Below are positions 8,816-22,809 of a stretch of DNA of 64,000 bases, piece after piece. The notes beneath the pieces were generated by a model, which saw only the letters and a list, made by a program, of their open reading frames with translations, ran no database searches and was not told the DNA's origin. The stretch is from an uncultured Pelagibacteraceae bacterium (GTDB lineage: Bacteria; Pseudomonadota; Alphaproteobacteria; Pelagibacterales; AG-422-B15): contig CACNSH010000004.1 in the NCBI GenBank assembly GCA_902622985.1, forward strand, positions 66 to 64,065. Direction: 5' to 3'. Position 1 is the stretch's first letter. Each line of letters starts with the position of its first letter. The translations under genes were made by a program, and so were the position numbers.

Positions 8816-10231
8816 TTATTTCTTAGTTTTTTTCTTAACTGTCTTTTTCTTTGCCGTTTTTTTCTTCACTTCATTCTTTTCAACTGAATTGACGTTATTA
8901 TACATTTTGATAAACGAATCAACATCAACATCCTTCTTTTTCAATTTAACCTTCGAAAGTATAAAGTCTACAATTTTATTTTCATATAAAGGAGCTTGAA
9001 GTTGCATCGCTGCATCCTGATTATTTCTATAGTAATCAATCACTTTTTGTTCTTGTCCTTTAAAATTGCTTGCATATTCAAAAAGGGCTTTATTCATCTC
9101 TTCTGGCGTCACTGAGATTTCATTTACTTTCCCAACCTCTTGAAGAATTAAGCCCAGTTCAATTCTATTTTTTGCATCTTCCTTAAATTTAGCCTCATTA
9201 TCAGAAGTCAATTTTTTATCTTTGATTTCCTTTTGATGATCAATTGATGATGGACTTTGTGAATTTAAATAATTTGCAGACAAGTTTTGAAATTCAACAT
9301 TTATAAGATCTTCAGGTAACTCAAATTTGTGCGCTGACTGGAGCTTTTCAAAAAGTACTTTTTTATCAAGATTTTTTGTTAGATCTGAGTACTCACTTTG
9401 CATTTGATTTTCGACCTTACTTTTTAGATCCTTTAAATCAGTTGCACCCATTGATTTTGCCAATTCATTATCTACTTTTGACTCAACGGGTGAACTTATT
9501 TTTTTAATATTGCAATCGAACACAGCATCAGCATTTTGTAACTCTTTTGCTGAATAATCTGCAGGAAACTTTACGTTTATCTTTTTGCTTTCTCCACTCT
9601 TTAGACCCACAAGGCCATCTTCTAAATCCTTTATGTATCGTCCAGAGCCAATTACAATTGTCTGACTTTCTGCCTTACCTCCGTCAAAATTCTTACCATC
9701 GATGGTTCCTTCATAATCTAATAAGACAGAGTCCTCTTTCTTAGCTTTATAATCACTGCCTTGCTCTTTATATGTTCTTTGAGATTTAGCAATTAAGTCT
9801 ATTCGTTTATCAATTTCTTTTTTATCAAGCTTTACCGAAGTTGACTCGATTTCGATTTTAGTAAAGTCGGCTAATTTTATTTCTGGAAAAACTTCAAACT
9901 CAATTTTAAACGTTTTATCAACATCTTTTTTTTCTTGTTCTTTATCTTTGTAATCAACCTTCGGTTGAGAAACGGGACGAAGCTTTCCTTCTTGTATTAT
10001 TTTTGAGACATTTTCATTTATTACAGCATTCAAAACTTCATTGTTAATCGCATCACCATGTTTTTGCATAATGATATTATTTGGAACTTTACCTGGTCTA
10101 AAGCCGTCAATTTTTACTGATTTTTTTACTTCCTCAATTTTTGACTCTAGCTTTGTGTTAAAATCTGCAGATGCAATAGTGAACTCATAAGCTCTTTTCA
10201 GACCTTTATTTAATACTTCTTTATAACTCAT
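8816..10231 (-). CDS. tig: trigger factor with a Lys-rich C-terminal tail
   Basis: It carries the ribosome-binding signature GFRPGKVP and a central FKBP-like region, and it occupies the tig-clpP-clpX position. The C-terminus ends [16 protein letters not shown]. Confidence 0.9.
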
Positions 10232-10252: not shown

Positions 10253-10337
10253 TGGTGCGGATAGAGGGACTCGAACCCCCATGAGTTGCCTCACTGGTAC
10301 CTAAAACCAGCGTGTCTACCAATTCCACCATATCCGC
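10253..10337 (-). tRNA. tRNA-Leu (anticodon TAG), class II with a long variable arm
   Basis: The reverse complement is GCGGATATGGTGGAATTGGTAGACACGCTGGTTTTAGGTACCAGTGAGGCAACTCATGGGGGTTCGAGTCCCTCTATCCGCACCA. The anticodon stem is CTGGT/ACCAG with loop TTTAGGT. CCA is encoded. Confidence 0.9.
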
Positions 10338-10387
10338 GATTAATAGAAAATGCAAAATAGACTATTTTTTAGATGTTTACAGTAAAA
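10312..10387. repeat. island direct repeat, left copy (tRNA-Leu nt 1-26 plus 50 bp of upstream flank)
   Basis: It is identical over 76 nt to 19546-19621, compared base by base. Identity breaks at 10311/19545 and at 10388/19622. Confidence 0.9.
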
Positions 10388-10479
10388 ATTTAATCTAGCT
10401 AAGGTTTTGGATTAAGGGGATTTTTGATGAATAATGTCAATATAGTGACAATGAAGTGAGCTTACTTTGAAGTTAGAAA

Positions 10480-11208
10480 TCACTCCGCATTTTCAATTAT
10501 TTGTTTAGTTAGTTCGTCATAATTATTTAAAATTAAGGATAAATTTCTTATAACTACACTTGTTTCATCGTTTGGATTTTCAGTGCTTCCGGAATTCGAA
10601 AGCCAATTAAAACTTCCCACTACGTAGTATTCTTTGTCACACATCAAAACTTTTGAATGATTTGGAATTTGAGCAATATACATTTTTCCATAAGCTCTAT
10701 TTTTGTTTGAATGTTCTTGTAAACTTCTAAGTATTTCTAATCCTTTAATATCAGAAATACGCATAGAATTGCTTTTTGAATATTCATATCCAAAACAAAT
10801 ATAAATATTTACTCCCCTATTAATTGCAGCCCTGATTGATTTTATTAATTTTTCATCTAACGCAAAACTCGTTGCCCAGCCAGATAATATAATCAAATCA
10901 TGCTTAGCTTTTCTAATAGTTTTCATTAAAAATTCTCTATGTTTTGCAGGACCTTTTACTTGTGTAAAGCCCAATTTACTATTTATAAACTTTCCTATTA
11001 CATTTGAATTGGATGTAGATAAGTATCCAATTATTGAAGAAACAATTAAAGTTGTGAGTTGAAGTTGTTGAAGAGACCCGTAAAGAGCAACATAAGTCAG
11101 AACAAGCCATAGTCCTGTTGCAATATAGCCAATTTTATCTGAAGTTCGCCAGGCAATAAAAACTGTAACAAAAATTGTAATTTGAAATAATAAAACAGCT
11201 ATACTCAT
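10480..11208 (-). CDS. membrane-anchored single-HKD phospholipase D superfamily protein (Nuc-like nuclease or phospholipase)
   Basis: It has a complete HxK(x)4D(x)6GSxN motif: H184-S-K186-VLMC-D191-KEYYVV-G198-S-F-N201. Three N-terminal hydrophobic segments lie at about residues 3-20, 26-44 and 51-66, followed by a K/R-rich linker. Confidence 0.7.
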   Translation of the reverse strand: MSIAVLLFQITIFVTVFIAWRTSDKIGYIATGLWLVLTYVALYGSLQQLQLTTLIVSSIIGYLSTSNSNVIGKFINSKLGFTQVKGPAKHREFLMKTIRKAKHDLIILSGWATSFALDEKLIKSIRAAINRGVNIYICFGYEYSKSNSMRISDIKGLEILRSLQEHSNKNRAYGKMYIAQIPNHSKVLMCDKEYYVVGSFNWLSNSGSTENPNDETSVVIRNLSLILNNYDELTKQIIENAE

Positions 11209-11237
11209 TTAATTATTTTCATATGTAAGTAATCAAT

Positions 11238-11579
11238 TTATTTTTTATCAATTAGATTATCTAACTTAGATCTAAGCTTTTCTTTTTTTCTAAACTTATC
11301 AAATCCATCATTTAATTCACTATCTGTTTCAAAAGTTGTAGGTCTTTTTAAGTAGAATACAAAAAATATTATCGCAAGTAATACTAAAATATTTTTTATA
11401 ATAAAAGAAATACCAAGATAATCTAAATTATTAGATTTTTCAGCCCACGTTAGATATTCATTGTGTAAATAAATAACTATTCCTACAAATATAAAAAAAT
11501 AAAAAATTCTTCTTATTCTTGGCTTAATCCAAATAAAGATTTTTGTTGCAGCTACAATTTTAATGAATTGATAAAACAC
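11238..11579 (-). CDS. hypothetical small membrane protein (2-3 TM helices with a charged C-terminal tail; holin-like topology)
   Basis: The hydrophobic segments are FYFFIFVGIVIYL and ISFIIKNILVLLAIIFFVFYL. The C-terminus is DKFRKKEKLRSKLDNLIDKK. It lies 2 nt downstream of the preceding ORF and 29 nt upstream of the PLD gene. I recognise no family. Confidence 0.45.
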   Translation of the reverse strand: MFYQFIKIVAATKIFIWIKPRIRRIFYFFIFVGIVIYLHNEYLTWAEKSNNLDYLGISFIIKNILVLLAIIFFVFYLKRPTTFETDSELNDGFDKFRKKEKLRSKLDNLIDKK

Positions 11580-11581
11580 GC

Positions 11582-11851
11582 CTAGTTAATGAACCATCCC
11601 AATCCCAAAGGAAGAAGGGCAAGTTTTAATCCAGTCATTTTATGCTTGCTTCTCACTTCTTTTTCTTTTTCAGCAATTATCTCTTCAATTTCACTATCAC
11701 TGTAATCAGACCATTTTTTTTGTCTGATCCTAAGCTCATTCTTTGTTTCTTTAATGGCTTTATCTCTATAATATTTATTTACACGATCTAATGATTTCTT
11801 TGATAGTGAGCCAATTTTATCAAAGACATCTTTTTTATTAATATCTTTCAT
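11582..11851 (-). CDS. hypothetical small protein: charged helical N-terminal part with a C-terminal hydrophobic anchor
   Basis: It is 89 aa, highly charged (KETKNELRIRQKKWSDYSDSEIEEIIAEKEKEVRSKHK), and ends in LKLALLPLGLGWFIN. It is the first gene of the three-gene cassette. I recognise no family. Confidence 0.4.
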   Translation of the reverse strand: MKDINKKDVFDKIGSLSKKSLDRVNKYYRDKAIKETKNELRIRQKKWSDYSDSEIEEIIAEKEKEVRSKHKMTGLKLALLPLGLGWFIN

Positions 11852-11937
11852 AGCTTGATAATAGCTTATTCGGGTAACTATTATAATGATAAAGTGTCAA
11901 TATAGTGTCAATGCACTTCGCATAACTTATTAAGAAA

Positions 11938-12660
11938 TCAAGAAGGTCGTGCCCATGTAGCATAGGAAAGCGGTGATTCATTGAGCTTTTGCCTTATGCT
12001 TTTCCACTTTGGCAAAACACCGTCAAGTAACTTATAAAACTTTTTGTTATGTCTAGTCTCAATAAAGTGAATTAGCTCGTGTACAATAACAAACTCTAGC
12101 GCATCTCTATCTTTGTGCACTAACTCGGTGTTGAGCCTAATAGATTTAGATGATGGAGAACAACTTCCCCATTTGGTTTTCATTCGTTGAATATAGATCT
12201 TCTGGACACTTAGATTAAACTGACACTCCCACTGTGCTATAATCTTAGTTGCTTTATGCCGCAACTGATCTCGATACCAACGCTCTAATATTTGTTTCTT
12301 TACCTGGGTGCTTGCATTGTCACACGCCCGCAGGATTAAATGCTTCCCTTTTAGTTCAACATGATCACCTCCACCAGAATTTTTAATTTTTAGAAGATAC
12401 CGCTGACCCCAAACATTGATGCTTTCCCTATTTATCAACTCTCGCTGCGACTCGCGTGCTTGATTAGCCAGCCGATGATGATGACGCTTTATCCATTCAA
12501 GTTTTGTCAGAGCAAATGCTTTAACAGTTTGTATGTCGACATCTAAGGGTGCAGAGACTTTCACCATGCCTACTGGCGGGTGAACAGTTAGGTGAATATT
12601 TTTAATATCTTTTTTAGTGACCTCAACATCAAAGCCACCAATTGTATGACGCTCAGCCAT
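11938..12660 (-). CDS. YgjP/DUF45-type (M48-like) zinc metallopeptidase associated with type I R-M
   Basis: WGSCSPSSKSIRLNTELV and VIVHELIHFIETRHNKKFYKLL (HExxH) match the DUF45/COG1451 signature. Its ATG overlaps the hsdR stop by 1 nt (TAATG). Confidence 0.75.
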   Translation of the reverse strand: MAERHTIGGFDVEVTKKDIKNIHLTVHPPVGMVKVSAPLDVDIQTVKAFALTKLEWIKRHHHRLANQARESQRELINRESINVWGQRYLLKIKNSGGGDHVELKGKHLILRACDNASTQVKKQILERWYRDQLRHKATKIIAQWECQFNLSVQKIYIQRMKTKWGSCSPSSKSIRLNTELVHKDRDALEFVIVHELIHFIETRHNKKFYKLLDGVLPKWKSIRQKLNESPLSYATWARPS

Positions 12661-15600
12661 TAATATCCTACCTGCTGTTCAATAATAGCAAACAATCTTT
12701 CAACTTCAGCCTTATTTTCTACAATTGCATAAATGGCTTGCTTAACACGTTGTTCTTTAGGTCCATTCCCACGCCAGCCATCTGGAATATTTTCAAGTAG
12801 ATGTTCATGAAGGGCAATCACCTTCTCTTCATTTTCACCCATATTATTGTAAAGAGCACGAAGCTCAGGCGTGTTGATTGATGCAGGCATTTCTTCACCT
12901 CTGCCGTCTTGTACCTGTTTGGCTAACTCAGCAATCTGTGCAAGATAAGCCTCATAGTCTAACGCTTGAGACTTTCTTTGTTGGATGATTTGGTCAAGCA
13001 AGTTAGACATCTTATCAAAAAAGGCAGGGTCATTTAACTGACTCTTTAAAAGCACGCTACGTACATTATTTTCGATTATTTCTGATATACCTTCTTTTGA
13101 TTTCACCGACTTCGCTAAGCGTTCGTTGATTGCATTAGCAGCGCCACTTTTCACAATCAGTTCAACTAGTGACATATTGTCAAAGTCGGAGATAGGTCTT
13201 GGTTCATCAGCTTCAATATATGTGTCTATCAAACGCCTCATATCAGCTTCATAGGCTTTAAGATCAAGATATTCACCGCTTGCATTTTTCACAATATCCG
13301 AAGCATCTTTGAAATGTTCAATGCGAGACTTGATGTGCCGCCTCTGATGATCATTATAGCCTGCCGCTTCCATATCATTGGCAATATTCGCATAAGCACG
13401 AACAAGAGCGGCAGTTAGCTGATACAATGCTTGACGCTTTTGCGCAGTGGTTTCCAAATCGTCCGTGACTTCTGAATTGCCACAGAAATATCGAATATAG
13501 TTAAGTGTTTCTTTTGGTGGCTCAACAAGCTCACACAGCTCTTCAATAGCTTCTATTGCAATATCTAATCGGTTGCGACAAAGTTCTAACCTGTCATTAA
13601 CTGTAATCTCTGGGCGAGGTTGCCCATCCTCATGGTCAAGCTCTTCAGTGTAAACCGCCATAGCGTTCTCAACCTTTCTAAACAGGTCTTTATAATCAAC
13701 GATATAACCGTAATCTTTATCTTCACCATCTAACCTGTTGGTTCGGCAGATAGCCTGAAACAACCCATGATCCTGCATCTTCTTATCGATATATAGATAT
13801 GTACAGCTTGGTGCATCAAAGCCTGTCAGCAATTTATCAACTACAATCAAAAGCTTCATGTTCCAGGGTTCTTTAATAAAAAGCCGCTTTGCTTCATCCT
13901 CATAAGTTTCTGTCTTGGTCTTGCCCGGCTTGGTATATACATCTTTGAGCATTTCTTCATAGATACGAAAAATAGTTTCCTTGTCTGTTTCAGATGTCGC
14001 TCCTGTATCTTCAAGCGAGATGTCACTGCCATGAGGATTATAAGATGTTACAACTGCACATCTATTATTCAACTCTGTCTGATTGAAAAGCTGGTAATAG
14101 CTACAAGCCTCATAAATTGAACCTGCAACAAGAATTGCATTTCCTCTATTTGTGGAAAGACGTGGTTTTGTATTGAAGTCAAAGATGATATCATCAATCA
14201 CCCTACCCATTCGTGACTTTGAGCTTAGAACGGTTTGCATAGTGCCCCATTGTTTTTTAAGAGCTGCCTTTTGCCAATCATTTAGGCCTCTAGTCTTTGC
14301 CTCAAACCACGCATCAATCTTATCCTGGGAGCCAAGTGTTTGGTCTACATCACGCGCTTCATAAGACAGGTCAAGCACCACCCCGTCATCAACAGCCTCG
14401 GCAAAGAGATAACGATGAATATAGCCCCCAAAGACTTGCTTCGTTGTTTCCTTATCAGCCTTCAACAGCGGTGTACCTGTGAAGCCAATGAAGGTCGCTT
14501 CAGGTAATTGAGCTTTCATCAAACGGTGTAACTTACCTGATTGAGTGCGGTGGCACTCATCAACAAGAACAAAGATGTCACCATATACAGAAACATTATA
14601 TTCTCTCAACTGTTTGATATAGGACTCAAAATCTTCAACACCATGCTTGCCAAATTTATGAATAAGAGAGCACATCAAGCGTGGGCTTGTCTGACTCAGT
14701 TTAGATAAGAGATCACGGCCACTTATTGCACGTTCGATCTGCTCACCGGCAGCTGCGAAGATACCTTCAATTTGTTTATCGAGTTCATCTCTATCTGTAA
14801 TAATAGCTACACGCGCATCGGGAATATTTTCCAAAATCCATTTTGCAAGTAGCACCATAACGATGGATTTGCCACTGCCTTGGGCATGCCAGATAATACC
14901 ACTCTCATGTCGTCTTATGTATGCCTGTGCTGCCTTCATGCCAAAATATTGATGTACTCTTGGTAGCTTTTTTCTGCCACCATCAAACAACACAAAGTCA
15001 TATAGTATTTCAAGCAGACGTGATTTCTCAAACATCTTACAGAGATATTTATCCAGTTTAAAGCCTTCATCCTGCTCCTCATCTTCTTTCCAAGTCAGGA
15101 AGAAAGGCTCAGGCGTACCAATTGTGCCATAGCGCAAACCCTCTGCATCACTGCCAGCCATCACTAACTGAACCGTTGGATAAAACCATTCATTAAAACG
15201 GGGTTGTTGATTAGAAATGCTCTGACGGATACCTTCAGTGATTGCAATTTTACTGCGCTTTAACTCTAGAACTCCGATTGCAATACCGTTGATATAGAAA
15301 ATAACATCAGGTCTGCGTTCCAAATTACCGCGAAGTGTAACTTCTTCTGCAAGTGCAAACTGATTTAAGTCAGAGTTTTGCCAGTCAATAAGGTGTATAG
15401 TTTCAGTTGACTTGCTGGCATCAACTTTTACCTGCACACCGTAGCGGAGCAAATTATAGGTGTCCTGATTTCGCTCATAGAGAGTCTTGCTGTTGTCTGC
15501 TGCGGCACGCTTTAACAGGTCAATTGCTCTGGATATTTGCGCATGGCTATAGCCACGTGAGACCAGGTTCTTAGTGAGTAACCCCTCTTCAATATTACTA

Positions 15601-15710
15601 TTATTCTCACGGTCACGCCAATCTCCCAGATAGTCGTAACTCATCTGACTTCTAAACAGATCAATCAGCCTTTCCTGAGTCACGATTTCCGGTTCTGATA
15701 AGCGGCTCAT
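12660..15710 (-). CDS. hsdR: type I restriction endonuclease subunit R
   Basis: It has a PD-(D/E)xK nuclease motif (RPDVIFY...GVLELK), helicase motif I AQGSGKS and motif II VLVDECHRTQSG. It is 1016 aa with a long helical C-terminal domain. It overlaps hsdS by 4 nt. Confidence 0.9.
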   Translation of the reverse strand: MSRLSEPEIVTQERLIDLFRSQMSYDYLGDWRDRENNSNIEEGLLTKNLVSRGYSHAQISRAIDLLKRAAADNSKTLYERNQDTYNLLRYGVQVKVDASKSTETIHLIDWQNSDLNQFALAEEVTLRGNLERRPDVIFYINGIAIGVLELKRSKIAITEGIRQSISNQQPRFNEWFYPTVQLVMAGSDAEGLRYGTIGTPEPFFLTWKEDEEQDEGFKLDKYLCKMFEKSRLLEILYDFVLFDGGRKKLPRVHQYFGMKAAQAYIRRHESGIIWHAQGSGKSIVMVLLAKWILENIPDARVAIITDRDELDKQIEGIFAAAGEQIERAISGRDLLSKLSQTSPRLMCSLIHKFGKHGVEDFESYIKQLREYNVSVYGDIFVLVDECHRTQSGKLHRLMKAQLPEATFIGFTGTPLLKADKETTKQVFGGYIHRYLFAEAVDDGVVLDLSYEARDVDQTLGSQDKIDAWFEAKTRGLNDWQKAALKKQWGTMQTVLSSKSRMGRVIDDIIFDFNTKPRLSTNRGNAILVAGSIYEACSYYQLFNQTELNNRCAVVTSYNPHGSDISLEDTGATSETDKETIFRIYEEMLKDVYTKPGKTKTETYEDEAKRLFIKEPWNMKLLIVVDKLLTGFDAPSCTYLYIDKKMQDHGLFQAICRTNRLDGEDKDYGYIVDYKDLFRKVENAMAVYTEELDHEDGQPRPEITVNDRLELCRNRLDIAIEAIEELCELVEPPKETLNYIRYFCGNSEVTDDLETTAQKRQALYQLTAALVRAYANIANDMEAAGYNDHQRRHIKSRIEHFKDASDIVKNASGEYLDLKAYEADMRRLIDTYIEADEPRPISDFDNMSLVELIVKSGAANAINERLAKSVKSKEGISEIIENNVRSVLLKSQLNDPAFFDKMSNLLDQIIQQRKSQALDYEAYLAQIAELAKQVQDGRGEEMPASINTPELRALYNNMGENEEKVIALHEHLLENIPDGWRGNGPKEQRVKQAIYAIVENKAEVERLFAIIEQQVGY

Positions 15711-16879
15711 ATCAAGCGCGTCCTCCCTGTCAGCAACTCCTGCATCATACCCGCTTTAACTTTTTTGGCTTTGTTGAGCTGTAAGTTAAGCAATGTTATT
15801 TCAGATTCAGCATCATCTAATTTGGAAACAATCTCTTTTTGTTCAGACACGCTTGGGATTGGTAGGGTCAAATCAGCAATCATTTCACGTCGAACAGAGT
15901 CAACTGAAGACTTAGCTGTCATGGACATAATCCGTTCGTAGAATCTAGATTTAAATTGCCAATAAAAATATCGGCCAACTACATCACTCCTAAAATCAGA
16001 TAATATATAAACTCGCTGATGAGCGTCGAATTTTCCATTCATGTAGTGGAAAATTTTACCTGTTCCTACGCCGTCACCTGCAGTCAAGACGGCTTCTTTA
16101 TCGTAAGCAAAGGAGTCAATTTTCTCAATTTTTTGAGACCTAACAAAAAATGGGTAAGCACCATCTGGCTTATTGTCTTGCGTATTTCTCCCCCCAGTTT
16201 CAATTGAAACAAGTTCATCAATTCTGGTGAATCTATCATTATTTTCAGAGCTTATAAGTAGCGTATTTGCCAATGAGTTTTGAACTTTTAATTTCTTCTC
16301 AATCAATTTTTCTAACGAGGTAATCAGCGCATCAACATCACTCAACGCCTCAGCAATCGCTTGCTGTTCTTGTTTTGAGATTGGATATAGAAGTTCTATA
16401 CTTTTGAGGTTTGAGCTATTTACATGAACAATAGCGTCTCCCTGTGCAGCTTTTTCTTTCTGCTTTCTAACCATTTCAGAGTTAAGAGCATATCCCAAAA
16501 AGATTGGGTCTATATCTTTAGGAGAGAAAATAACTATGTCACCACCTGCATAAGCTTCAAATTTATCAACAAAAGCTGCTGACTTACCAATTTCCTCTTT
16601 CTTTTCCCCTGAACCTGCAAATAGTTGATCTCCAAACTTCAAAAGAACTGAGTCTTTTGAAATATCCGAAGATATAAATGATTTATAATATTGAATAATA
16701 TTATGATGGTCTGTGTAAAGTTCACCGTATCTTACACATGGAATCTCTCCAGAATTCGCTATAGATTTAGTAATACCTTTTCCCTTGCTGAACCTACCAA
16801 GTTTTTCTAAGGTTGATATAGTCCATTTACGCGGTACTTTATAATTTTTATCAAGGTCAAATAATAAAGTAACTACCAT
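15707..16879 (-). CDS. hsdS: type I restriction-modification specificity subunit S (two dissimilar target-recognition domains)
   Basis: Two variable domains are separated by conserved helical spacers (EQQAIAEALSDVDALITSLEKLIEKK and EQKEIVSKLDDAESEITLLNLQLNKAKKVKAGMMQELLTGR). It sits between hsdM and hsdR and overlaps both. Confidence 0.85.
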   Translation of the reverse strand: MVVTLLFDLDKNYKVPRKWTISTLEKLGRFSKGKGITKSIANSGEIPCVRYGELYTDHHNIIQYYKSFISSDISKDSVLLKFGDQLFAGSGEKKEEIGKSAAFVDKFEAYAGGDIVIFSPKDIDPIFLGYALNSEMVRKQKEKAAQGDAIVHVNSSNLKSIELLYPISKQEQQAIAEALSDVDALITSLEKLIEKKLKVQNSLANTLLISSENNDRFTRIDELVSIETGGRNTQDNKPDGAYPFFVRSQKIEKIDSFAYDKEAVLTAGDGVGTGKIFHYMNGKFDAHQRVYILSDFRSDVVGRYFYWQFKSRFYERIMSMTAKSSVDSVRREMIADLTLPIPSVSEQKEIVSKLDDAESEITLLNLQLNKAKKVKAGMMQELLTGRTRLI

Positions 16880-19281
16880 GAGAACCTCATGGCTTTAAGA
16901 TGTTGTTCCACTTTATCAGAAAGTTCTGCTATCTGCTTTTGAATTTGAGGTAGCGGTGAATCGTAACGTTCTGCCAACTCCTTTAATCGTCTAGTAAGTT
17001 TTTGCAATATTGATTGATTAGCCTCATTAATCATAACCTCTAGGCTTGCCATCCATTTATTGTTAACAACAATCTCTTTGACTTCTTCTTCTGTCAGGTT
17101 TGGATAATGTTCTAATACTGCCTTGTCCAGTGCTTCGTCCTGTTCTTTCACCTGCTTCTTAATGGCTGCAATTGCTTTGGTTTTATTTGCCCATTCATCT
17201 AAGACTGACAGCTCATCTGCAAATTCAACATTGCCTTTAATTTCTTTGATGCGAGCATTTACTTCCTTTTTATTCACCTTATCAAAATCAGCAAAGACCC
17301 CATCATCACCTGACTGCTCTTCAACCATTTCTGCAAGCGTTGCCTCAGCTGATTCAAGCTCAGCCAGCTGAGTGTCAAGTACGGTTTGTTTATCGGCAAA
17401 GGCATAAGCAACTAGAAGGGATTTTGGCAATAGATCACAGGCCCAGCCGGCATCCTTCTCTTGTCCTTTTTTCTTGCCTTGTTTGATAGTTTCAATCACA
17501 CGGTAAGGCTCTGCCTTCCATCCCTCTACAGCGATATGATAGAAATCATCCGATAATACTTCTTCCCAATAATTCATCATCAATTGGTAAATATCATAAG
17601 GGTCAATCAGCGGCTGTTTGCTGTAATGGTCAAGCAATCCCTTTGCAAGTTGAGCAATTTCTTGCTTTGGCTTAATGCCAATCTGTAACGCCATTAGGTA
17701 ATCAACCACTTCAGTTTGCCACGCCTGATAATGCGAAGCTGCCTTTGCTTCAAAGGCTTTATAATCAGCATGATTCGAAATCGTTTCGCTTATCGCATTC
17801 GTAGCAACATTAAAGGATAAATATCCTTCTCGCATTGGCGACAGCAGCACCTTGCGAAGTTTGGTAAACTCATGCCAATAGTCACTCAGTGCGTCAATAT
17901 CTGCTTGCGGTATTCCGCCATTGAGATGGGCATCAATATCCTGAATATCCTCACTCTTATTTATAGAAATATAGCGCGGTAAATTAAGATTGTGATCTTG
18001 CTCAAGAATTTCAGTCATTGGCACAAAACGCGCATAGCCAATCATATCTATGCCTTGCTTATATGTGTCCACAATGCGATGCACATCCATTTCACGCAGG
18101 CGGTTCTTTGGTCCATCTTTCATAAAGCCATCGCTTGCATTGATCATAAAAATTCCATCACGTGTGGCTGCCTCTGACTTATCCAGCACAATGATACAGG
18201 CAGGAATACCCGTTCCGTAAAAAAGGTTAGCTGGTAGGCCTATAATTGCCTTTATATAGCCACGCTTTAAGATATTTTTTCGGATTGTCTCTTCTGAATT
18301 TCCACGAAACAGTACACCATGAGGTAAAATGACTGCAGCTTTACCATTCGATTTCAGTGAGCGGATGATATGCAGCATGTACGCATAGTCACCCTGTTTG
18401 TTTGGCGGTATACCATAATGTTGAAATCGCTCATGGACATCTTGGTCAGGTGTAAGTCCATTGCTCCAACGCTTGTCACTAAATGGTGGGTTGGCGACCA
18501 CATAATCAAATGTTTTAAGACTGCCATGTTCAATAAATTTTGGATCAGATAACGTATTGCCTTGCATGATTTGTGAGGTCGGATTGTCATGCAGAATCAT
18601 ATTCATCTGCGCCAAGGAAGCTGTGGCACTTTCTTGCTCTTGTCCATAAAGGGTAACATTACCAGTTGCTTCATCACTTACTTTCAACAACAAAGAGCCA
18701 GACCCGCAAGTTGGGTCATAGACGGTCGTGCTGCTAGAGGTCTCATCCTGACCAATTCCAAGGACTAATGCCATGATGCGGCTAACTTCAGATGGAGTAT
18801 AGAACTGTCCTTTGCTCTTACCGCTCTCAGAAGCAAAGTGGCGCATTAAATATTCATACGCATCACCAAGAATATCATCTCCATCTGCGCGGTTGTGGGA
18901 GAAATCTAACTCTTTCTTTTCAAATACAGCAATTAGATTGGTCAATCTGTCCTGCATTTCTTTTCCTGAACCAAGTTTCTGGCTGTCATTAAAATCAGGG
19001 AGGTTACCTAAATCATTGGCATCTTGAAGGGGGCCCACAATGCGCTTATTAATTTGGTCTCCAATATCAGAGGTTCCTTTTAGTTTTACCAAATCAGCAA
19101 AACTTGCTCCCTCTGGTACAGTTATTTCCGCATAAGGCTGACCAGCATATTTATCAGAGACATATTTAATAAAGAGTAGGACAAGCACATAATCCTTATA
19201 CGCAGCAGGTTCGATGCCTCCGCGCAGCTCATCACACGCTTTCCAAATAGATGAATATAGTTCTGATTTCTTAATTGCCAT
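16873..19281 (-). CDS. hsdM: type I restriction-modification DNA methyltransferase subunit M (long 802-aa form)
   Basis: The N-terminus reads SELYSSIWKACDELRGG...YKDYVLVLLFIKYVSDKY. The SAM motif is VYDPTCGSGSLL and the catalytic motif is NPPF (VVANPPFSDKRW). There is a helical/coiled-coil C-terminal extension of about 300 aa. Confidence 0.9.
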   Translation of the reverse strand: MAIKKSELYSSIWKACDELRGGIEPAAYKDYVLVLLFIKYVSDKYAGQPYAEITVPEGASFADLVKLKGTSDIGDQINKRIVGPLQDANDLGNLPDFNDSQKLGSGKEMQDRLTNLIAVFEKKELDFSHNRADGDDILGDAYEYLMRHFASESGKSKGQFYTPSEVSRIMALVLGIGQDETSSSTTVYDPTCGSGSLLLKVSDEATGNVTLYGQEQESATASLAQMNMILHDNPTSQIMQGNTLSDPKFIEHGSLKTFDYVVANPPFSDKRWSNGLTPDQDVHERFQHYGIPPNKQGDYAYMLHIIRSLKSNGKAAVILPHGVLFRGNSEETIRKNILKRGYIKAIIGLPANLFYGTGIPACIIVLDKSEAATRDGIFMINASDGFMKDGPKNRLREMDVHRIVDTYKQGIDMIGYARFVPMTEILEQDHNLNLPRYISINKSEDIQDIDAHLNGGIPQADIDALSDYWHEFTKLRKVLLSPMREGYLSFNVATNAISETISNHADYKAFEAKAASHYQAWQTEVVDYLMALQIGIKPKQEIAQLAKGLLDHYSKQPLIDPYDIYQLMMNYWEEVLSDDFYHIAVEGWKAEPYRVIETIKQGKKKGQEKDAGWACDLLPKSLLVAYAFADKQTVLDTQLAELESAEATLAEMVEEQSGDDGVFADFDKVNKKEVNARIKEIKGNVEFADELSVLDEWANKTKAIAAIKKQVKEQDEALDKAVLEHYPNLTEEEVKEIVVNNKWMASLEVMINEANQSILQKLTRRLKELAERYDSPLPQIQKQIAELSDKVEQHLKAMRFSW

Positions 19282-19545
19282 TATTTATATTTTCTAACTT
19301 ATTTGATATCGTAGCAACTAAGATCGTAAAAAAATACCTCAACTGTTACTCAACTTTTCATAAGCACACTGTAAACTAAGATCTAAATGTATATCAATTC
19401 AACATGTAAACTATTGGAGTTAATTAAAGGCAATTTGCCTCATGATGTGTAGTAGTATTAAGTATTTCCTAATATTTTATCGTAGAAAATTAAAGACAGA
19501 ACATTTTATTTTTGGCTGTTTTACTGAGGTTGAAATGAAAACTCG

Positions 19546-19571
19546 GTGTCTACCAATTCCACCATATCCGC
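19546..19571 (-). pseudogene. orphan 5' fragment (nt 1-26) of tRNA-Leu(TAG)
   Basis: These 26 nt are identical to the acceptor-5' strand plus D arm of the intact tRNA at 10312-10337. No anticodon, T arm or 3' acceptor strand follows. Confidence 0.85.
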
Positions 19572-19621
19572 GATTAATAGAAAATGCAAAATAGACTATT
19601 TTTTAGATGTTTACAGTAAAA
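19546..19621. repeat. island direct repeat, right copy
   Basis: It is identical to 10312-10387. It is followed by core sequence leading into the 2-hydroxyacid dehydrogenase gene. Confidence 0.9.
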
Positions 19622-19657
19622 TATTACAATTTGATGCTATAATTTTGACCGTTAATT

Positions 19658-20599
19658 ATGACAAAAAATATTGTATTTTTAGATAGGTCCACTTTTCCTT
19701 CTAATATTATATTTCCAAAACTTGATTTTAATCACAAATGGAAAAACCATAGTTTTACAAAGGTGAGGGAAGTTAAAAAAAGGATTGAGAAAGCACATAT
19801 AGTTGTTACCAACAAAATTGAACTGAATAGAAATAATTTATCTAATGCGAACAATTTAGAACTAATTGCGATAACTGCAACGGGAACGAATATAATAGAC
19901 TTAGAGTATTGCAGAAAACACAATATCTCTATATGCAATCTAAGAGACTATGCTTCCATATCGGTTGCTGAACACGTTTTAACTCTTATGCTTGCACTTT
20001 CTAAAAATATTAAAGGTCTTGAGAAAGATATAGACAAGAAACTTTGGCAAAAAAGAAAGGTGTTTGCATTACTTAGCAGAGAAATAAATGACTTACATGG
20101 CAAAACATTGGGCATAATTGGAAAAGGTTCAATCGGCATGAAAGTTGGCAGAATAGCTAAAGCATTTGGAATGAATATTAATTATTTTTCGGTTAGAAAT
20201 TATAAAAAAACACAATTTTTACAATTCTTATCATCTCTTGATTATTTATCTGTTCATTGCCCCTTGAATGAGAAAACAAAAGACCTGATAACAATTAAAG
20301 AATTAAAAATAATGAAAAAAAATATGATCTTAATTAATACTGCCAGGGGCGGCATAGTTAATGAAAATGATCTGACAAAAGCATTAAAACAAAAAATCAT
20401 TGCAGGAGCTGGAATTGATGTCACAACTAGTGAACCTCCAAAAAAATCTCACGCTTATTATAGCATATTAAATGAAGCAAATTTCATTTGGACACCTCAT
20501 ACTGCATGGGCATCAAATGAAACCTTGCAAGAAGCAATCAATCAATTAATAAAAAATATAAATTCTTTTTATAAAGGCAGAAAAAGAAATATCGTTTAA
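19658..20599 (+). CDS. D-isomer-specific 2-hydroxyacid dehydrogenase (glycerate dehydrogenase / hydroxypyruvate reductase-like)
   Basis: It has an NAD-binding motif GIIGKGSIGMKVG, the catalytic region NTARGGIVNENDL, and TPHTAWAS. Confidence 0.8.
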   Translation: MTKNIVFLDRSTFPSNIIFPKLDFNHKWKNHSFTKVREVKKRIEKAHIVVTNKIELNRNNLSNANNLELIAITATGTNIIDLEYCRKHNISICNLRDYASISVAEHVLTLMLALSKNIKGLEKDIDKKLWQKRKVFALLSREINDLHGKTLGIIGKGSIGMKVGRIAKAFGMNINYFSVRNYKKTQFLQFLSSLDYLSVHCPLNEKTKDLITIKELKIMKKNMILINTARGGIVNENDLTKALKQKIIAGAGIDVTTSEPPKKSHAYYSILNEANFIWTPHTAWASNETLQEAINQLIKNINSFYKGRKRNIV

Positions 20600-20749: not shown

Positions 20750-20968
20750 ATGAAATTGTTTCAAGTCCATACAGGTTTTTATGATCCTAATATTTCAGAT
20801 GGCTTTTACGAAGGGCACACCAATATCTTTGTCTGCGCGAAAGATGAAAAAGAAGCTCGAGAAAAAGTGAAAGAAAAAAAAGAATATAAGAAATTTAAGA
20901 TGCACATTGATGGTATTCAGGAAATAACTATCGTTGATGACTATAAAGTTGAGCTAAATAAAATCTAG
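20750..20968 (+). CDS. hypothetical small protein (possibly DUF1543-like)
   Basis: It is a 72-aa ORF (LFQVHTGFYD...GHTNIFVCAKDEKEAREKV...HIDGIQEI). My recollection of DUF1543-type proteins is weak. The coding call rests on ORF length and tight packing. Confidence 0.35.
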   Translation: MKLFQVHTGFYDPNISDGFYEGHTNIFVCAKDEKEAREKVKEKKEYKKFKMHIDGIQEITIVDDYKVELNKI

Positions 20969-22809
20969 GCTCTAGTGCACTTACCGCTCATAAAGGTTTT
21001 GTAAATTTCATCCACTTCCTCGTCAGTAAGAGTTGTTCTATTAAACATTTTATCAATTATATTGCACTTTTGATCAACAGTTATGCTCTCACTAGATATT
21101 CCTTGAAGAATTGAATTTGCCGATAAAGTATTATTAAACATTGCAATGCCCTTATCGTTAACAGAATCAAATACGATAAACCTCTCATTGTTATTTAATT
21201 TATCCCATGGTTTCCAATCAGTAGACATATCATAAGGGGCGCTATTTGGATTACCATCATAAGCAAAGTTTACCCAATACTGTCCCATTTTTGTAGAGAG
21301 CTCTAAATCAGTGGACCTGTTATTTTCATTATACATTATATCATTTATCGCATCAGAGCTCTCGCCTAATAAACCATCTGATTTAAAAATAAACGCTAAC
21401 TCCATTCCATGTGCAGCGCCTAGAAGATTGGGGAGATCAACACCTAAATAGACATTTTGTTCATCCCAATCAAATCTATAAGCATATACATTTGATTTTT
21501 TGTAATTTGATGTAAAGTCTGAAGGTAGATCTACTGCACCATATTTCCATGACTCTGCCATGTATTTAGCATAGATATCATAATACTTTGGATCTTTGGG
21601 TTTTACATATAAATCAAGATATTCTGAGATTGGACTTAAAAAAGATAATGGCCTATTCACATATTCATTGTTCATAAACATAAACAGTTTATCTTCATCT
21701 CGTGTCGAACCAAATATCATAGGTTTGTCATACATATCACCATCTCTATAAGCTCCATAAATTCCCTTATTTGGAATTACTACTCCATCAGGTATTACAT
21801 TTGGAACATCAATTAATCCAGCTGCATCAGGTCTTGGCCTATAATATGATATAATATCGTTTGCATCTGCAGTTCTTAAAAGGTCAACAGAAAGCATCTG
21901 ATTGCTCATGAAATTTGAAATCTCCTCATCAGATATTGATGTGTTCTTTGATTTGATTAAGTGTCTTAATAAACTCTTAGAACCTGCTCTTTCATTATTT
22001 TCTGCATACTCTAGAGAGTCTGAGCCGAGATAACCGCTCTGAGAAATTCCTCTTTGAAATAAGTCTTCACTTAAAGGTGAGGTCATAAGTGAAATTACAT
22101 TTCTTGCTCCAGCAGACTCACCAAAAATGGTAATGTTATTTGGGTCACCATTAAAATCTGAAATATTTTCATTAACCCACTCAAGTGATTTTATAATATC
22201 GAGAGTTCCAAAATTTGCACTTTGATCAAGTTCATTATCTGAGTCTTCATTTAAATCGCTGAAGGCAAACCATCCAAAAGGACCTAATCTATAGTTAGTT
22301 GTGACTAAAATTACATCATGTTCCATTATGAAATCGCCTGAAGTATACAAGTTTGAAGCTGAATAACCCCACGTATTTCCACCTCCGTGTATCCAAAACA
22401 TGACTGGTAATTTCTTTTTACTGTTGTATGCCTTTTCTGAAAGATAAATATTTAAATAAAGACAGTCCTCAGATCCAATTATTGAACCTCCCTCAATGCC
22501 ATCCATTGAGTCATAAAAATTACTAACTTGCATGCACCTATTAGGTAATGTTGTGGCTTCAAATGTATCGGGCAGCTGCTCCATTTCTCTGGGAGCTTTC
22601 CATCTTAATTCATCAACTGGTGGCTTTGCAAAGGGAATACCGACAAAAGAAATAGTTTTTAAACCATCTTTTTCTTTTGCTACTGATCCAATGAAATCAG
22701 TGTTTTTGGATTTAAATGTATATATCTGTTCTTCTGCATAACTTATATTCAAACTAAGTGTAAGAAAAAGTATTAGAAGTAATGATATTTTATTAATTTT
22801 CCTCAACAT
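20965..22809 (-). CDS. secreted type-B carboxylesterase/lipase family protein
   Basis: It has a signal peptide (SLLLILFLTLSLNISYA/EE), the oxyanion-hole motif FWIHGGGNTWG, and the nucleophile elbow FGESAGA. Confidence 0.85.
   Translation of the reverse strand: MLRKINKISLLLILFLTLSLNISYAEEQIYTFKSKNTDFIGSVAKEKDGLKTISFVGIPFAKPPVDELRWKAPREMEQLPDTFEATTLPNRCMQVSNFYDSMDGIEGGSIIGSEDCLYLNIYLSEKAYNSKKKLPVMFWIHGGGNTWGYSASNLYTSGDFIMEHDVILVTTNYRLGPFGWFAFSDLNEDSDNELDQSANFGTLDIIKSLEWVNENISDFNGDPNNITIFGESAGARNVISLMTSPLSEDLFQRGISQSGYLGSDSLEYAENNERAGSKSLLRHLIKSKNTSISDEEISNFMSNQMLSVDLLRTADANDIISYYRPRPDAAGLIDVPNVIPDGVVIPNKGIYGAYRDGDMYDKPMIFGSTRDEDKLFMFMNNEYVNRPLSFLSPISEYLDLYVKPKDPKYYDIYAKYMAESWKYGAVDLPSDFTSNYKKSNVYAYRFDWDEQNVYLGVDLPNLLGAAHGMELAFIFKSDGLLGESSDAINDIMYNENNRSTDLELSTKMGQYWVNFAYDGNPNSAPYDMSTDWKPWDKLNNNERFIVFDSVNDKGIAMFNNTLSANSILQGISSESITVDQKCNIIDKMFNRTTLTDEEVDEIYKTFMSGKCTRA

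What the first reader, a model, noticed from the sequence alone, without database searches (positions are those of the whole stretch)
10312..19621. Integrase-less 9.2-kb island bracketed by a perfect 76-bp repeat that duplicates the 5' (not 3') part of tRNA-Leu plus its upstream flank
**Seen in sequence.**
- 10312-10387 and 19546-19621 are identical over 76 nt, and identity breaks on both sides.
- The left copy is nt 1-26 (acceptor 5' strand plus D arm) of the intact tRNA-Leu(TAG), plus 50 nt upstream.
- The right copy is an orphan fragment followed by core genes.
- The repeat ends exactly at the start of the anticodon stem.
- None of the seven enclosed ORFs resembles an integrase, excisionase, transposase or relaxase. 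The 264-bp right arm has no ORF either.

**Established knowledge.** tRNA-targeting islands normally duplicate the 3' portion of the tRNA and carry a tyrosine integrase next to it.

**Inference.** Three explanations fit:
- the island is a decayed or trans-mobilised element whose attachment site covers the tRNA 5' half and promoter;
- the cargo was swapped in by homologous recombination between conserved flanks, as proposed for hypervariable regions of streamlined marine genomes;
- the 76-bp duplication is a target duplication of an unusual mechanism.
Basis: partly seen in the sequence, partly recalled or inferred. Interest (0 to 1): 0.65.

Follow-up and report, generated by a model that had tools for sequence, protein, structure and literature searches.

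The report
Integrase-less defence island at SAR11 tRNA-Leu
A 9.2-kb horizontally acquired restriction-modification island sits in a known phage-attachment hot spot inside the tRNA-Leu gene of a SAR11 marine bacterium; it carries no recombinase of its own, and similar recombinase-less islands with tRNA-fragment repeats have already been noted in SAR11.

Summary
A perfect 76-nt direct repeat (10312-10387 / 19546-19621) consists of nt 1-26 of an intact tRNA-Leu(TAG) plus its 50-nt upstream flank. It brackets a complete Type I R-M operon, a YgjP-like peptidase, a PLD-like protein and two small ORFs, with no recombinase. The host is SAR11 (Pelagibacteraceae).

- **Site occupancy:** 26 of 38 related genomes or contigs have the empty site (tig, tRNA-Leu, one repeat copy, 2-hydroxyacid dehydrogenase). 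Others carry different cargo there, including two islands in tandem.
- **Island ends:** Islands with different cargo share conserved non-coding ends. These hold tandem 7-mers that co-vary between the two ends of an island, as the two halves of a phage-type attP would.
- **5'-half duplication:** This is not anomalous here. HTVC019P-type pelagiphages are documented to integrate in this tRNA with this geometry.
- **Prior description:** SAR11 islands with partial tRNA repeats and no integrase were reported in 2025.

Best reading (confidence 0.55): an integrase-less integrative island, either mobilised in trans or decayed. It was inserted by site-specific recombination at a pelagiphage-type attB. 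Homologous (Campbell-type) integration is the main rival. I rate it a new member of a known kind, of moderate interest.

The parts
8816..10231 (-). tig (trigger factor), the conserved left flank
   Evidence: Pfam Trigger_N/FKBP_C/Trigger_C. It lies next to tRNA-Leu in all relatives.
10253..10337 (-). Intact tRNA-Leu(TAG). Its nt 1-26 lie inside the left repeat copy.
   Evidence: ARAGORN and Rfam RF00005 at 57 bits. It is identical to the tRNA of empty-site relatives.
10312..10387 (.). Left copy of the 76-nt repeat (attR-type block): tRNA nt 1-26 plus 50 nt upstream
10388..10455 (.). Left non-coding arm. It includes the tandem 7-mer pair TGTCAAT-ATAG-TGACAAT at 10435-10453.
   Evidence: Shared with L012 and L140-146, which carry other cargo (alignment A5).
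10480..11208 (-). 242-aa membrane-anchored PLD-family protein (accessory module)
   Evidence: Pfam PLDc_2 at 1.7e-12. PADLOC hits to MkoC, MkoB and DrmC PLD domains.
11238..11579 (-). 113-aa hydrophobic ORF with no family assignment
11582..11851 (-). 89-aa ORF with no family assignment
11895..11913 (.). Second tandem 7-mer pair (TGTCAAT-ATAG-TGTCAAT). It lies at the exact left boundary of the R-M module shared with L009.
   Evidence: (D5)
11938..12660 (-). YgjP-like (SprT/WLM-type) zinc metallopeptidase, the last gene of the R-M operon
   Evidence: Pfam PF01863 at 3e-53
12660..15710 (-). hsdR, Type I restriction subunit (1016 aa, full length)
   Evidence: Pfam. PADLOC REase_I at 1335 bits, covering residues 5-1012.
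15707..16879 (-). hsdS, specificity subunit. Its target-recognition domains differ from those of L009.
   Evidence: Identity to L009 is only 50-72% over 15493-17092.
16873..19281 (-). hsdM, Type I methyltransferase (802 aa, full length)
   Evidence: Pfam N6_Mtase at 7e-101. PADLOC MTase_I at 1163 bits.
19425..19545 (.). Right non-coding arm (GGCAATTTGCC ... GAAAACTCG), joined to tRNA nt 26. The window's copy is degraded.
   Evidence: Homologous arms flank three different cargos in L009, L116 and L117 (alignment A1). The window's copy is 69% identical to those arms and has an 11-nt deletion.
19546..19621 (.). Right copy of the 76-nt repeat (attL-type orphan): upstream flank plus tRNA nt 1-26 only
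19658..20599 (+). D-2-hydroxyacid (glycerate) dehydrogenase, the conserved right flank
   Evidence: Pfam. It is adjacent to tRNA-Leu in empty-site relatives.

Best explanation
**What it is.** The segment 10388-19545 is a horizontally acquired defence island in a SAR11 (Pelagibacteraceae) chromosome. It carries a complete Type I restriction-modification operon (hsdM-hsdS-hsdR plus a YgjP-like peptidase) and a small accessory module (a PLD-like protein and two small ORFs).

**Where it sits.** It occupies an attachment site inside the 5' part of tRNA-Leu(TAG), next to tig.

**What the repeat is.** The 76-bp repeat is the attL/attR identity block.
- The incoming DNA brought its own copy of the tRNA upstream flank (presumably the promoter) plus tRNA nt 1-26. 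That copy now heads the intact gene.
- The displaced chromosomal 5' fragment is left as an orphan next to the dehydrogenase gene.

**How it got there (inferred).** Insertion was by a tyrosine integrase supplied in trans, from a pelagiphage or another element. Alternatively, the island had an integrase module that it has since lost. In either case it resembles integrase-less, att-flanked 'cis-mobilisable' elements.

**What happened since (inferred).** The locus is a hot spot where such islands stack in tandem and exchange cargo. Loss by recombination between the repeats would regenerate a scar-free empty site.

**Shown:** the anatomy, the empty sites, the alternative cargo, the tandem array, the conserved and co-varying ends, and the absence of an integrase.

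**Inferred:** the recombinase, the direction of transfer and the role of the promoter.
For: **The insertion is real and polymorphic.**
- The empty site (tig, tRNA-Leu, one 76-mer, dehydrogenase) is seen in 15 of 17 SAR11 single-cell genomes.
- It is also seen in 8 of 10 long-read genomes and in L139, L148 and L149.
- The window's nearest relatives are all empty (98-99% identity in tig and the dehydrogenase gene).
- hsd GC is about 41% against about 34% for the rest of the window.

**The same junctions carry different cargo.**
- The nt-26 orphan plus a conserved right arm of about 135 nt flanks three cargos. These are Type I R-M (window, L009), a Ser/Thr kinase, PP2C-like and DUF805 membrane-protein island (L117), and a C5-methyltransferase with a partner gene (L116).
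- A second junction class, with the orphan reaching nt 49, flanks MORN-repeat genes (L012) and a trypsin-like protease island (L009 island C).

**Islands stack in tandem.**
- L009/L154 has two islands separated by an orphan. The newer one lies next to the intact tRNA.

**The element brings its own promoter and 5' half.**
- In L012 and L009 the intact tRNA has a diverged upstream allele. The orphans keep the host allele.

**The ends look like attP.**
- Together the two arms and the identity block span about 260-275 nt.
- They carry tandem 7-mers with a period of 10-11 nt.
- The 7-mers are TGTCAAT-type at both ends of L009 island C and GTAC-type at both ends of L012, while the surrounding arm sequence stays homologous. 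Shared 7-mers between the two ends of one island number 8 (L009 island C) and 3 (L012); none of these motif 7-mers is shared between the two islands.
- HTVC011P's attP region, read by eye, has the same layout of tandem GTTGCA sites and inverted TGCAAC sites.

**There is precedent at this site.**
- Pelagiphage integrases target this tRNA and complement its 5' part.

**The same cargo rides a classical element elsewhere.**
- The same R-M operon (81-83% nt identity) sits on a classical element in a 44%-GC bacterium. That element has an integrase, AlpA and AAA_25, and lies next to a tRNA-Arg 3' fragment.
Against: - **No recombinase in any island.** None was found in the window, L009 (both islands), L012, L116, L117, L143, L152, or L027/L032.
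- **No recombinase among the window ORFs tested.** None was found among 10 further integrase-sized ORFs of the window.
- **No circular or attP form was found.**
- **The arms are absent from phage collections.** They are missing from 50,697 phage genomes and from IMG/VR.
- **No match to HTVC011P-like phages.** The arms share nothing with them beyond the tRNA itself.
- **The left arm may be native.** It lies contiguous with the tRNA in lineages that have cargo but no orphan (L140-146, L027, L032). It could therefore be native sequence.
- **The 7-mer pair also occurs inside islands** (window 11895; L143 2416).
- **The repeat copies match each other in each genome.** The two copies are identical in both the window and L009 and share each host's allele at -33. 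This also fits homologous recombination or gene conversion.
- **The co-variation rests on only two islands.**
Confidence: 0.55

Rival explanations
1. **Homologous recombination only.** A circular DNA that carried a copy of the tRNA 5' part and its upstream flank integrated by a single RecA-mediated (Campbell-type) crossover. That event duplicated the 76-nt homology. Spread, cargo exchange and loss are then all by homologous recombination. No site-specific recombinase is involved.
For: - No integrase was found in any island or near the locus.
- The two repeat copies are identical within each genome and share the host allele at -33. It is T in the window and A in L009.
- The left arm is contiguous with the tRNA in lineages without an orphan. 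A circle could therefore have arisen from such a chromosome.
- hsdS and the accessory module are swapped between carriers.
- SAR11 is known for very high recombination rates (established knowledge).
Against: - It does not explain why two discrete junction classes (nt 26 and nt 49) recur with unrelated cargo.
- It does not explain why about 135 nt and about 65 nt of non-coding ends are conserved across cargos.
- It does not explain why the tandem 7-mers change together at both ends of an island.
- 76 nt is a short substrate.
- A first circle containing a broken tRNA still needs an unexplained origin.
Confidence: 0.25
2. **Decayed pelagiphage prophage.** An HTVC011P- or HTVC025P-like phage integrated at this tRNA. 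All of its phage genes were later deleted or replaced by defence genes, leaving only attL and attR.
For: - The tRNA, the geometry and the neighbour (tig) are the same as for documented pelagiphage integration. Environmental hybrid reads confirm that integration.
Against: - No phage gene remnant is present in any island.
- The island arms share nothing with HTVC011P-like attP flanks in 22 phage loci beyond the tRNA.
- They also find no match in the phage collection.
- HTVC011P-type phages carry a complete tRNA-Leu of their own, and the islands do not.
- An independent and complete replacement would be needed in each of more than five cargo types.
Confidence: 0.08
3. **Ancestral segment.** The region was present in the common ancestor and was deleted in most relatives. 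It was never an insertion.
For: - The R-M divergence between the two carriers (90-96.5% nt) is similar to that of the flanking core genes (93.5-95.3%).
Against: - hsd GC (about 41%; GC3 about 0.37) is far above the host's (GC3 about 0.24-0.26).
- All of the window's closest relatives are empty.
- The same operon occurs in a 44%-GC bacterium on an integrase-bearing element.
- It also occurs at another locus in a SAR11-like contig (L260).
- The orphan tRNA fragment is the signature of an insertion.
Confidence: 0.04
4. **Long target-site duplication.** The 76 bp is a duplication made by an unknown transposition-like mechanism.
For: - Both copies carry the host allele in the two genomes where both are visible.
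- The two junction classes have identity blocks of nearly the same length, 76 and about 77 nt.
Against: - No transposase or casposase is present.
- No terminal inverted repeats of the transposon type were seen.
- No known mechanism makes duplications of this size.
- In the nt-49 class the sequence beyond the block is a diverged homologue of the host upstream region, not unrelated DNA.
Confidence: 0.03

Closest known systems
Integration of HTVC019P-type pelagiphages (HTVC011P, HTVC025P) at SAR11 tRNA-Leu(TAG) (Zhao et al., bioRxiv 10.1101/410191)
   Same: - Same host clade and same tRNA next to trigger factor.
- Same geometry: attP supplies the 5' part of the tRNA, and the host 5' fragment is left as an orphan on the upstream side.
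- Same attP layout of tandem sites on both sides of the core (read by eye).
   Different: - The islands encode no integrase, no phage genes and no complete tRNA of their own.
- Their identity block is longer than the phages' 11-46-bp cores. It is 76 nt and includes 50 nt upstream.
- Their arms show no sequence similarity to HTVC011P-like phages.
SAR11 flexible genomic islands with partial tRNA repeats (Microbiome 2025, PMC11796062)
   Same: The paper reports that SAR11 islands lack canonical mobile elements. [quoted passage not shown] This is the same phenomenon.
   Different: In the text I could read, the paper does not describe which half of the tRNA is repeated, the conserved arms, the co-varying 7-mers or the tandem order. 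I could not confirm that this tRNA-Leu island is one of its four cases, because no supplements are held.
Tycheposons of Prochlorococcus (bioRxiv 10.1101/2020.12.28.424599)
   Same: - Cargo and defence islands at tRNA genes in a streamlined marine bacterium.
- Partial tRNA copies flank the elements.
- Tandem stacking, with the newest element next to the tRNA.
- Degenerate remnants.
   Different: - Tycheposons are defined by their own tyrosine recombinase and replication genes. None is present here.
- No SAR11 case is mentioned in that text.
Cis-mobilisable elements (CIMEs) of Streptococcus ICESt1/ICESt3, and other att-flanked integrase-less islands (own knowledge, not checked here)
   Same: Elements bounded by functional-looking att sites. 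They lack recombination genes and are thought to move when a related element supplies the integrase, often after tandem accretion.
   Different: CIMEs sit at the 3' end of a protein-coding gene, and their helper ICE is known. Here the helper is unknown and the site is the 5' half of a tRNA.
Classical tRNA-linked genomic island with a tyrosine integrase (for example the L257/L258 element carrying the homologous R-M operon)
   Same: Same cargo operon at 81-83% nt identity, and also tRNA-associated.
   Different: The classical element has an integrase, an AlpA-type excisionase and AAA_25. It lies next to a 3' tRNA-Arg fragment. The window island has none of these genes and duplicates the 5' part.

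Membership tests
Type I restriction-modification system (cargo) | HsdM methyltransferase, HsdS specificity subunit and HsdR helicase-nuclease subunit encoded together and full length | tested here: met
   Pfam N6_Mtase/HsdM_N, Methylase_S (two stretches) and HSDR_N/SWI2_SNF2/T1R_D3. PADLOC matches are end-to-end at 1163, 175 and 1335 bits.
Classical tRNA-integrating genomic island or prophage | Encodes its own tyrosine (or serine) integrase next to the tRNA | tested here: not met
   No Phage_integrase or recombinase domain in any of the seven ORFs, nor in related islands.
Classical tRNA-integrating genomic island or prophage | Direct repeat is the 3' portion of the tRNA | tested here: not met
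   The repeat is nt 1-26 plus the upstream flank.
Classical tRNA-integrating genomic island or prophage | Polymorphic presence with a scar-free empty site in relatives | tested here: met
   26 of 38 related loci are empty.
HTVC019P-type pelagiphage prophage | attB in a SAR11 tRNA, with the element supplying the 5' part of the tRNA | tested here: met
   Geometry compared with the description.
HTVC019P-type pelagiphage prophage | Integrase, RNA polymerase and other T7-like phage genes between attL and attR | tested here: not met
   No tblastn or blastn link to 22 HTVC011P-like loci apart from the tRNA.
Tycheposon | Deep-branching tyrosine recombinase plus replication hallmark genes | tested here: not met
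   None present.
Tycheposon | tRNA-linked, flanked by partial tRNA copies, stacked in tandem within islands | tested here: met
Integrase-less att-flanked (CIME-like, trans-mobilised) element | Both ends carry att sites recognisable by a recombinase encoded elsewhere | tested here: inconclusive
   The arms are conserved, and the tandem 7-mers co-vary between the two ends. No cognate integrase was identified, and binding was not tested.
Integrase-less att-flanked (CIME-like, trans-mobilised) element | Excision or transfer demonstrated when a helper is present | not testable with these tools
   Needs read-level data or an experiment.
Integron gene cassette | IntI integrase, attI, and attC sites with R''-L''/L'-R' structure after each ORF | tested here: not met
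   No IntI is present. The repeated motif is a tandem direct 7-mer, not an attC-type imperfect palindrome. Rfam finds only the tRNA.

The most novel reading that the evidence does not exclude
SAR11 is usually described as lacking mobile elements. Under this reading it hosts a family of gene-free 'att-arm' backbones. Each backbone has about 270 bp of split attP, with arm-type 7-mers that define specificity classes. The backbones carry interchangeable defence and surface cargo, have no recombinase, and are inserted, stacked and excised at tRNA-Leu by pelagiphage-type integrases acting in trans. That would make them phage hitch-hikers that deliver anti-phage systems. The duplicated tRNA upstream region might serve as the promoter for the cargo, since in all five islands with an orphan the genes next to it run in the same direction as the tRNA.
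Probability: 0.3. Interest if true: 0.75.

Novelty: new member of a known kind. Interest (0 to 1): 0.45.

Why it matters
SAR11 is the most abundant bacterial clade in the ocean. How its streamlined genomes, which are poor in mobile elements, acquire defence and surface genes is still debated. This locus gives a concrete, testable case:
- a defined attB in tRNA-Leu;
- reconstructable attP halves;
- at least two specificity classes;
- several cargos.

If a phage integrase is shown to act on these arms, it would link lysogenic pelagiphages directly to the spread of anti-phage systems among their hosts. It would also give SAR11 a counterpart to the tycheposons of Prochlorococcus. If the process turns out to be homologous recombination only, the locus is simply one more documented flexible island.

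Tried and rejected
- **Phage or viral origin of the repeat and arms.** Exact-pattern scans of IMG/VR found nothing for the tRNA/upstream junction, the nt-49 right end, the left arm or the right arm. BLAST of both arms against 50,697 phage genomes gave only tRNA hits or nothing.
- **tRNA 35-mer in IMG/VR.** The 81 hits are complete tRNA-Leu genes of 40-46%-GC phages and are unrelated.
- **Triple TGTCAAT sites in IMG/VR.** None of the 102 hits lies near a tRNA-Leu fragment, and many come from giant-virus repeats.
- **HTVC011P-like integrase loci.** The 21 loci are all free phage with their own tRNA-Leu and no similarity to the arms. Homologues of that integrase occur only on phage-sized contigs.
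- **Exact-protein look-ups.** The window's PLD and tig proteins are not on record.
- **Structured RNA from the orphan promoter into the right arm.** z-scores are inconsistent (-2.9, -0.8, -2.2, +0.6). The alignment fold shows almost no covariation. Rfam finds only the tRNA. Rejected.
- **Sigma-70 consensus in the 50-nt upstream block on the tRNA strand.** None was found by the simple scan. The promoter role therefore remains an inference.
- **Transfer of the island together with long flanks.** I first read the window-versus-L009 identity profile as evidence for this. It was rejected after comparison with 24 loci. The low clpX/clpP identity is a separate import in L009, and tig and the dehydrogenase gene are at ordinary between-clade divergence.
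- **L258 as a circular element.** Its ends overlap at only 89.5% identity. They are two related tandem copies, not a circle.
- **Integron-cassette reading of the repeated motif.** Rejected.
- **Williams 2002 (tRNA sublocation rules).** The paper could not be read. That rule is cited from my own knowledge.

Full report
**1. Observation**

The repeat is real. Coordinates 10312-10387 and 19546-19621 are identical over 76 nt, or 81 nt with two mismatches. These are the only copies in the window even when 3 mismatches are allowed, and none is expected by chance.

tRNA-Leu(tag) lies on the minus strand at 10253-10337 (Rfam at 57 bits). The left copy is therefore tRNA nt 1-26 plus 50 nt upstream. The right copy is an orphan 36 nt from the start of a 2-hydroxyacid dehydrogenase gene.

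All seven enclosed ORFs are on the tRNA strand:
- a membrane-anchored PLD-family protein;
- two small hydrophobic ORFs;
- a YgjP-like metallopeptidase;
- full-length HsdR, HsdS and HsdM.

None has a recombinase, transposase or relaxase domain. The hsd genes have about 41% GC (GC3 about 0.37). The flanking core genes have 30-37% GC (GC3 about 0.25).

**2. Host and site occupancy**

A scan of one genome per species with the dehydrogenase protein returned 17 Pelagibacteraceae (SAR11) single-cell genomes.
- Fifteen have the empty site: tig, intact tRNA-Leu, one 76-mer, dehydrogenase.
- Eight of ten near-complete long-read SAR11 genomes are empty too.
- So are L139, L148 and L149.
- The window's closest relatives (98-99% identity in tig and the dehydrogenase gene) are all empty.

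The segment is therefore an insertion that is polymorphic within a close population. The 76-mer is not a dispersed repeat.

**3. Alternative cargo at the same site**

| Locus | Content |
|---|---|
| L012 | 2.5 kb of MORN-repeat genes between the intact tRNA and a decaying orphan (4 mismatches) that reaches tRNA nt 49 |
| L009/L154 | Two islands in tandem: dehydrogenase, nt-26 orphan, HsdM-S-R-YgjP plus two unrelated ORFs, nt-49 orphan, 124-aa ORF, 72-aa ORF, trypsin-like protease, intact tRNA, tig |
| L117 | nt-26 orphan; Ser/Thr kinase, PP2C-like protein and DUF805-type membrane proteins |
| L116 | nt-26 orphan; C5 DNA methyltransferase with a partner gene |
| L140-146 | Three SHOCT-tailed ORFs, no tRNA orphan |
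| L152 | CsgG-like island, no tRNA orphan |
| L027, L032 | PhyH-like gene and a 102-aa ORF, no tRNA orphan |

The R-M operon of L009 is 90-96% identical to the window's. Its hsdS recognition domains and accessory module differ. L116 and L117 came from a metagenome scan with a pattern specific for the nt-26 orphan. No island encodes an integrase.

**4. The ends**

- **Right arm.** Islands with the nt-26 junction share a conserved non-coding right arm of about 135 nt (GGCAATTTGCC ... GAAAACTCG), whatever the cargo (alignment A1). The window's copy is only 69% identical to the others and has an 11-nt deletion. The others are 87-91% alike. The window's arm therefore looks degraded.
- **Left arm.** The first 40-65 nt inside the repeat (... 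TCTAGCTAAGGTTTTGG ...) are shared by the window, L012, L009 island C and L140-146.
- **Tandem 7-mers in the arms.** Both arms contain tandem 7-mers with a period of 10-11 nt. TGTCAAT-type pairs or triplets occur at window 10435 and 11895, at L009 84 and 2171, in L154 next to the tRNA, and in L143. An inverted TGTCTGT-ATT-TGTCTAC occurs in the nt-26 right arm.
- **Co-variation between the two ends of one island.** Both ends are visible for the two nt-49 islands, and there the 7-mers change together. They are TGTCAAT at both ends of L009 island C and GTACTA/GGTAC at both ends of L012. The flanking arm sequence stays homologous. The two ends of one island share 8 (L009 island C) and 3 (L012) 7-mers, and none of these motif 7-mers is shared between the two islands.
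- **Element-borne promoter region.** In both nt-49 genomes the intact tRNA has a diverged upstream allele and the orphans keep the host allele. The incoming DNA therefore brought its own promoter region and tRNA 5' half.
- **Size and layout.** Together the arms and the identity block span about 260-275 nt. That is the size and layout of the attP of an arm-binding tyrosine integrase (established knowledge for lambda-type sites). The HTVC011P attP region, read by eye, shows the same layout with GTTGCA and TGCAAC sites.

**5. What is known**

- **Zhao et al. (bioRxiv 10.1101/410191).** HTVC019P-type pelagiphages integrate into SAR11 tRNA genes. HTVC011P and HTVC025P use tRNA-Leu(TAG). The phage attP carries the 5' end of the tRNA. 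Environmental hybrid reads show an orphan 5' fragment on one side and integrase, intact tRNA-Leu and trigger factor on the other. Duplication of the 5' half is therefore the documented geometry at this site and not an anomaly.
- **A 2025 SAR11 pangenome study (PMC11796062).** SAR11 islands lack canonical mobile elements. Seven are tRNA-linked, and four contain a partial repeat of the tRNA.
- **Tycheposons of Prochlorococcus.** They show the same tandem stacking with partial tRNAs, but they encode their own recombinase.

**6. Origin of the cargo**

- The same operon (81-83% nt identity) occurs in a 44%-GC bacterium on a classical element. That element has AAA_25, AlpA and a tyrosine integrase, and lies next to a 3' fragment of tRNA-Arg(CCG).
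- An 88%-identical copy sits at another locus in a SAR11-like contig (L260).
- The R-M operon is therefore travelling cargo. In SAR11 it rides without a recombination module.

**7. Mechanism**

I favour site-specific insertion by an integrase supplied in trans or since lost (confidence 0.55). Later events would be stacking, cargo exchange and scar-free loss between the repeats.

The main rival is Campbell-type homologous integration of a circle carrying the 76-nt block (0.25). Three observations support it:
- no integrase is present;
- the two repeat copies are identical within each genome and share the host allele;
- the left arm is contiguous with the tRNA in lineages that have no orphan.

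Three observations are left unexplained by the rival:
- the recurrent junction classes;
- the conserved arms;
- the co-varying 7-mers.

I give low probability to three further readings:
- A decayed pelagiphage prophage (0.08). No phage genes remain, and the arms do not match phage attP flanks.
- An ancestral segment lost elsewhere (0.04).
- A 76-bp target duplication (0.03).

**8. Limits**

- No helper integrase, circular form or excision junction was found.
- The co-variation rests on two islands.
- The promoter role of the 50-nt block is inferred, since the simple scan found no consensus promoter.
- Only 64 kb of the host genome could be searched for recombinases. Ten integrase-sized ORFs outside the island are housekeeping genes.
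- The genome-collection and metagenome scans were each limited to one.

**9. Verdict**

- This is a new, well-resolved member of a kind already noted in SAR11. What it adds is that the islands share att-like ends with co-varying sites.

Noticed in passing
window 15493-17092 (hsdS and the 3' end of hsdM) compared with L009 6000-7500: The specificity subunit is only 50-72% identical between two otherwise 94-98% identical R-M operons (390 aa against 408 aa). This suggests that target-recognition domains were swapped within a shared operon backbone.
   Followed up: partly
window 20965-22809 (carboxylesterase-like gene): Among close SAR11 relatives this gene falls into two deeply divergent alleles, about 91-96% or about 76% identical to the window. 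Its neighbours stay at 92-99%. It appears to be a hypervariable or replaced core gene two genes away from the island.
   Followed up: no
window 6800-8068 (clpX): The window's clpX is about 90% identical to every close relative, while lon, clpP and tig are 93-99%. In L009's genome clpX and clpP are 79% and 88%. These look like separate recombination imports in the left flank.
   Followed up: partly
L009 9825-9845; L117 6105-6125; L116 215-235; window about 19470-19490: The nt-26 right arm contains an inverted near-copy of the tRNA D-arm sequence (TTTGTCTACCATAT against the tRNA's ATATGG...GGTAGACA). It gives a 9-bp helix with the orphan fragment in 3 of 4 arms and is degraded in the window. There is no consistent RNA-folding signal.
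   Followed up: partly
L117 2709-5959: Six consecutive small membrane proteins, one of them DUF805, all end in the same C-terminal motif (D/S)xGFKVV(K/R)K(S/V)K(E/D). They lie next to a Ser/Thr kinase and a PP2C-like protein. This may be a paralogous family and a candidate phosphorylation-linked or defence module.
   Followed up: no
L143 1497-4097 (same island in L140-146, seven metagenomes): Three secreted or membrane ORFs (288, 363 and 185 aa) share a SHOCT-like C-terminal tail (LKELKxLLDEGLISxEQYDEKSSKILDxF). They are fixed between tRNA-Leu and the dehydrogenase gene in one lineage. Only a 15-20-nt remnant of the upstream block survives at the far end.
   Followed up: partly
L258 1-11896 and L257 3351-13502: In a 44%-GC marine bacterium, two related Type I R-M elements lie in tandem (hsdM 5' ends 89.5% identical). 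One carries AAA_25, AlpA and a tyrosine integrase next to a 3' fragment of tRNA-Arg(CCG).
   Followed up: partly
all loci: 50 nt upstream of tRNA-Leu (window 10387/10388): At least four unrelated sequences are joined to the tRNA upstream region at the same point, after CAGTAAAA (window/L143, L009, L152, empty sites). This may reflect selection to keep the promoter block and not a recombination site.
   Followed up: partly
window 19602-19630 (+ strand): A sigma-70-like promoter match for the dehydrogenase gene (TTTAGA, 17-nt spacer, TACAAT) starts inside the right repeat copy. The 76-mer may therefore contain divergent promoter elements.
   Followed up: no
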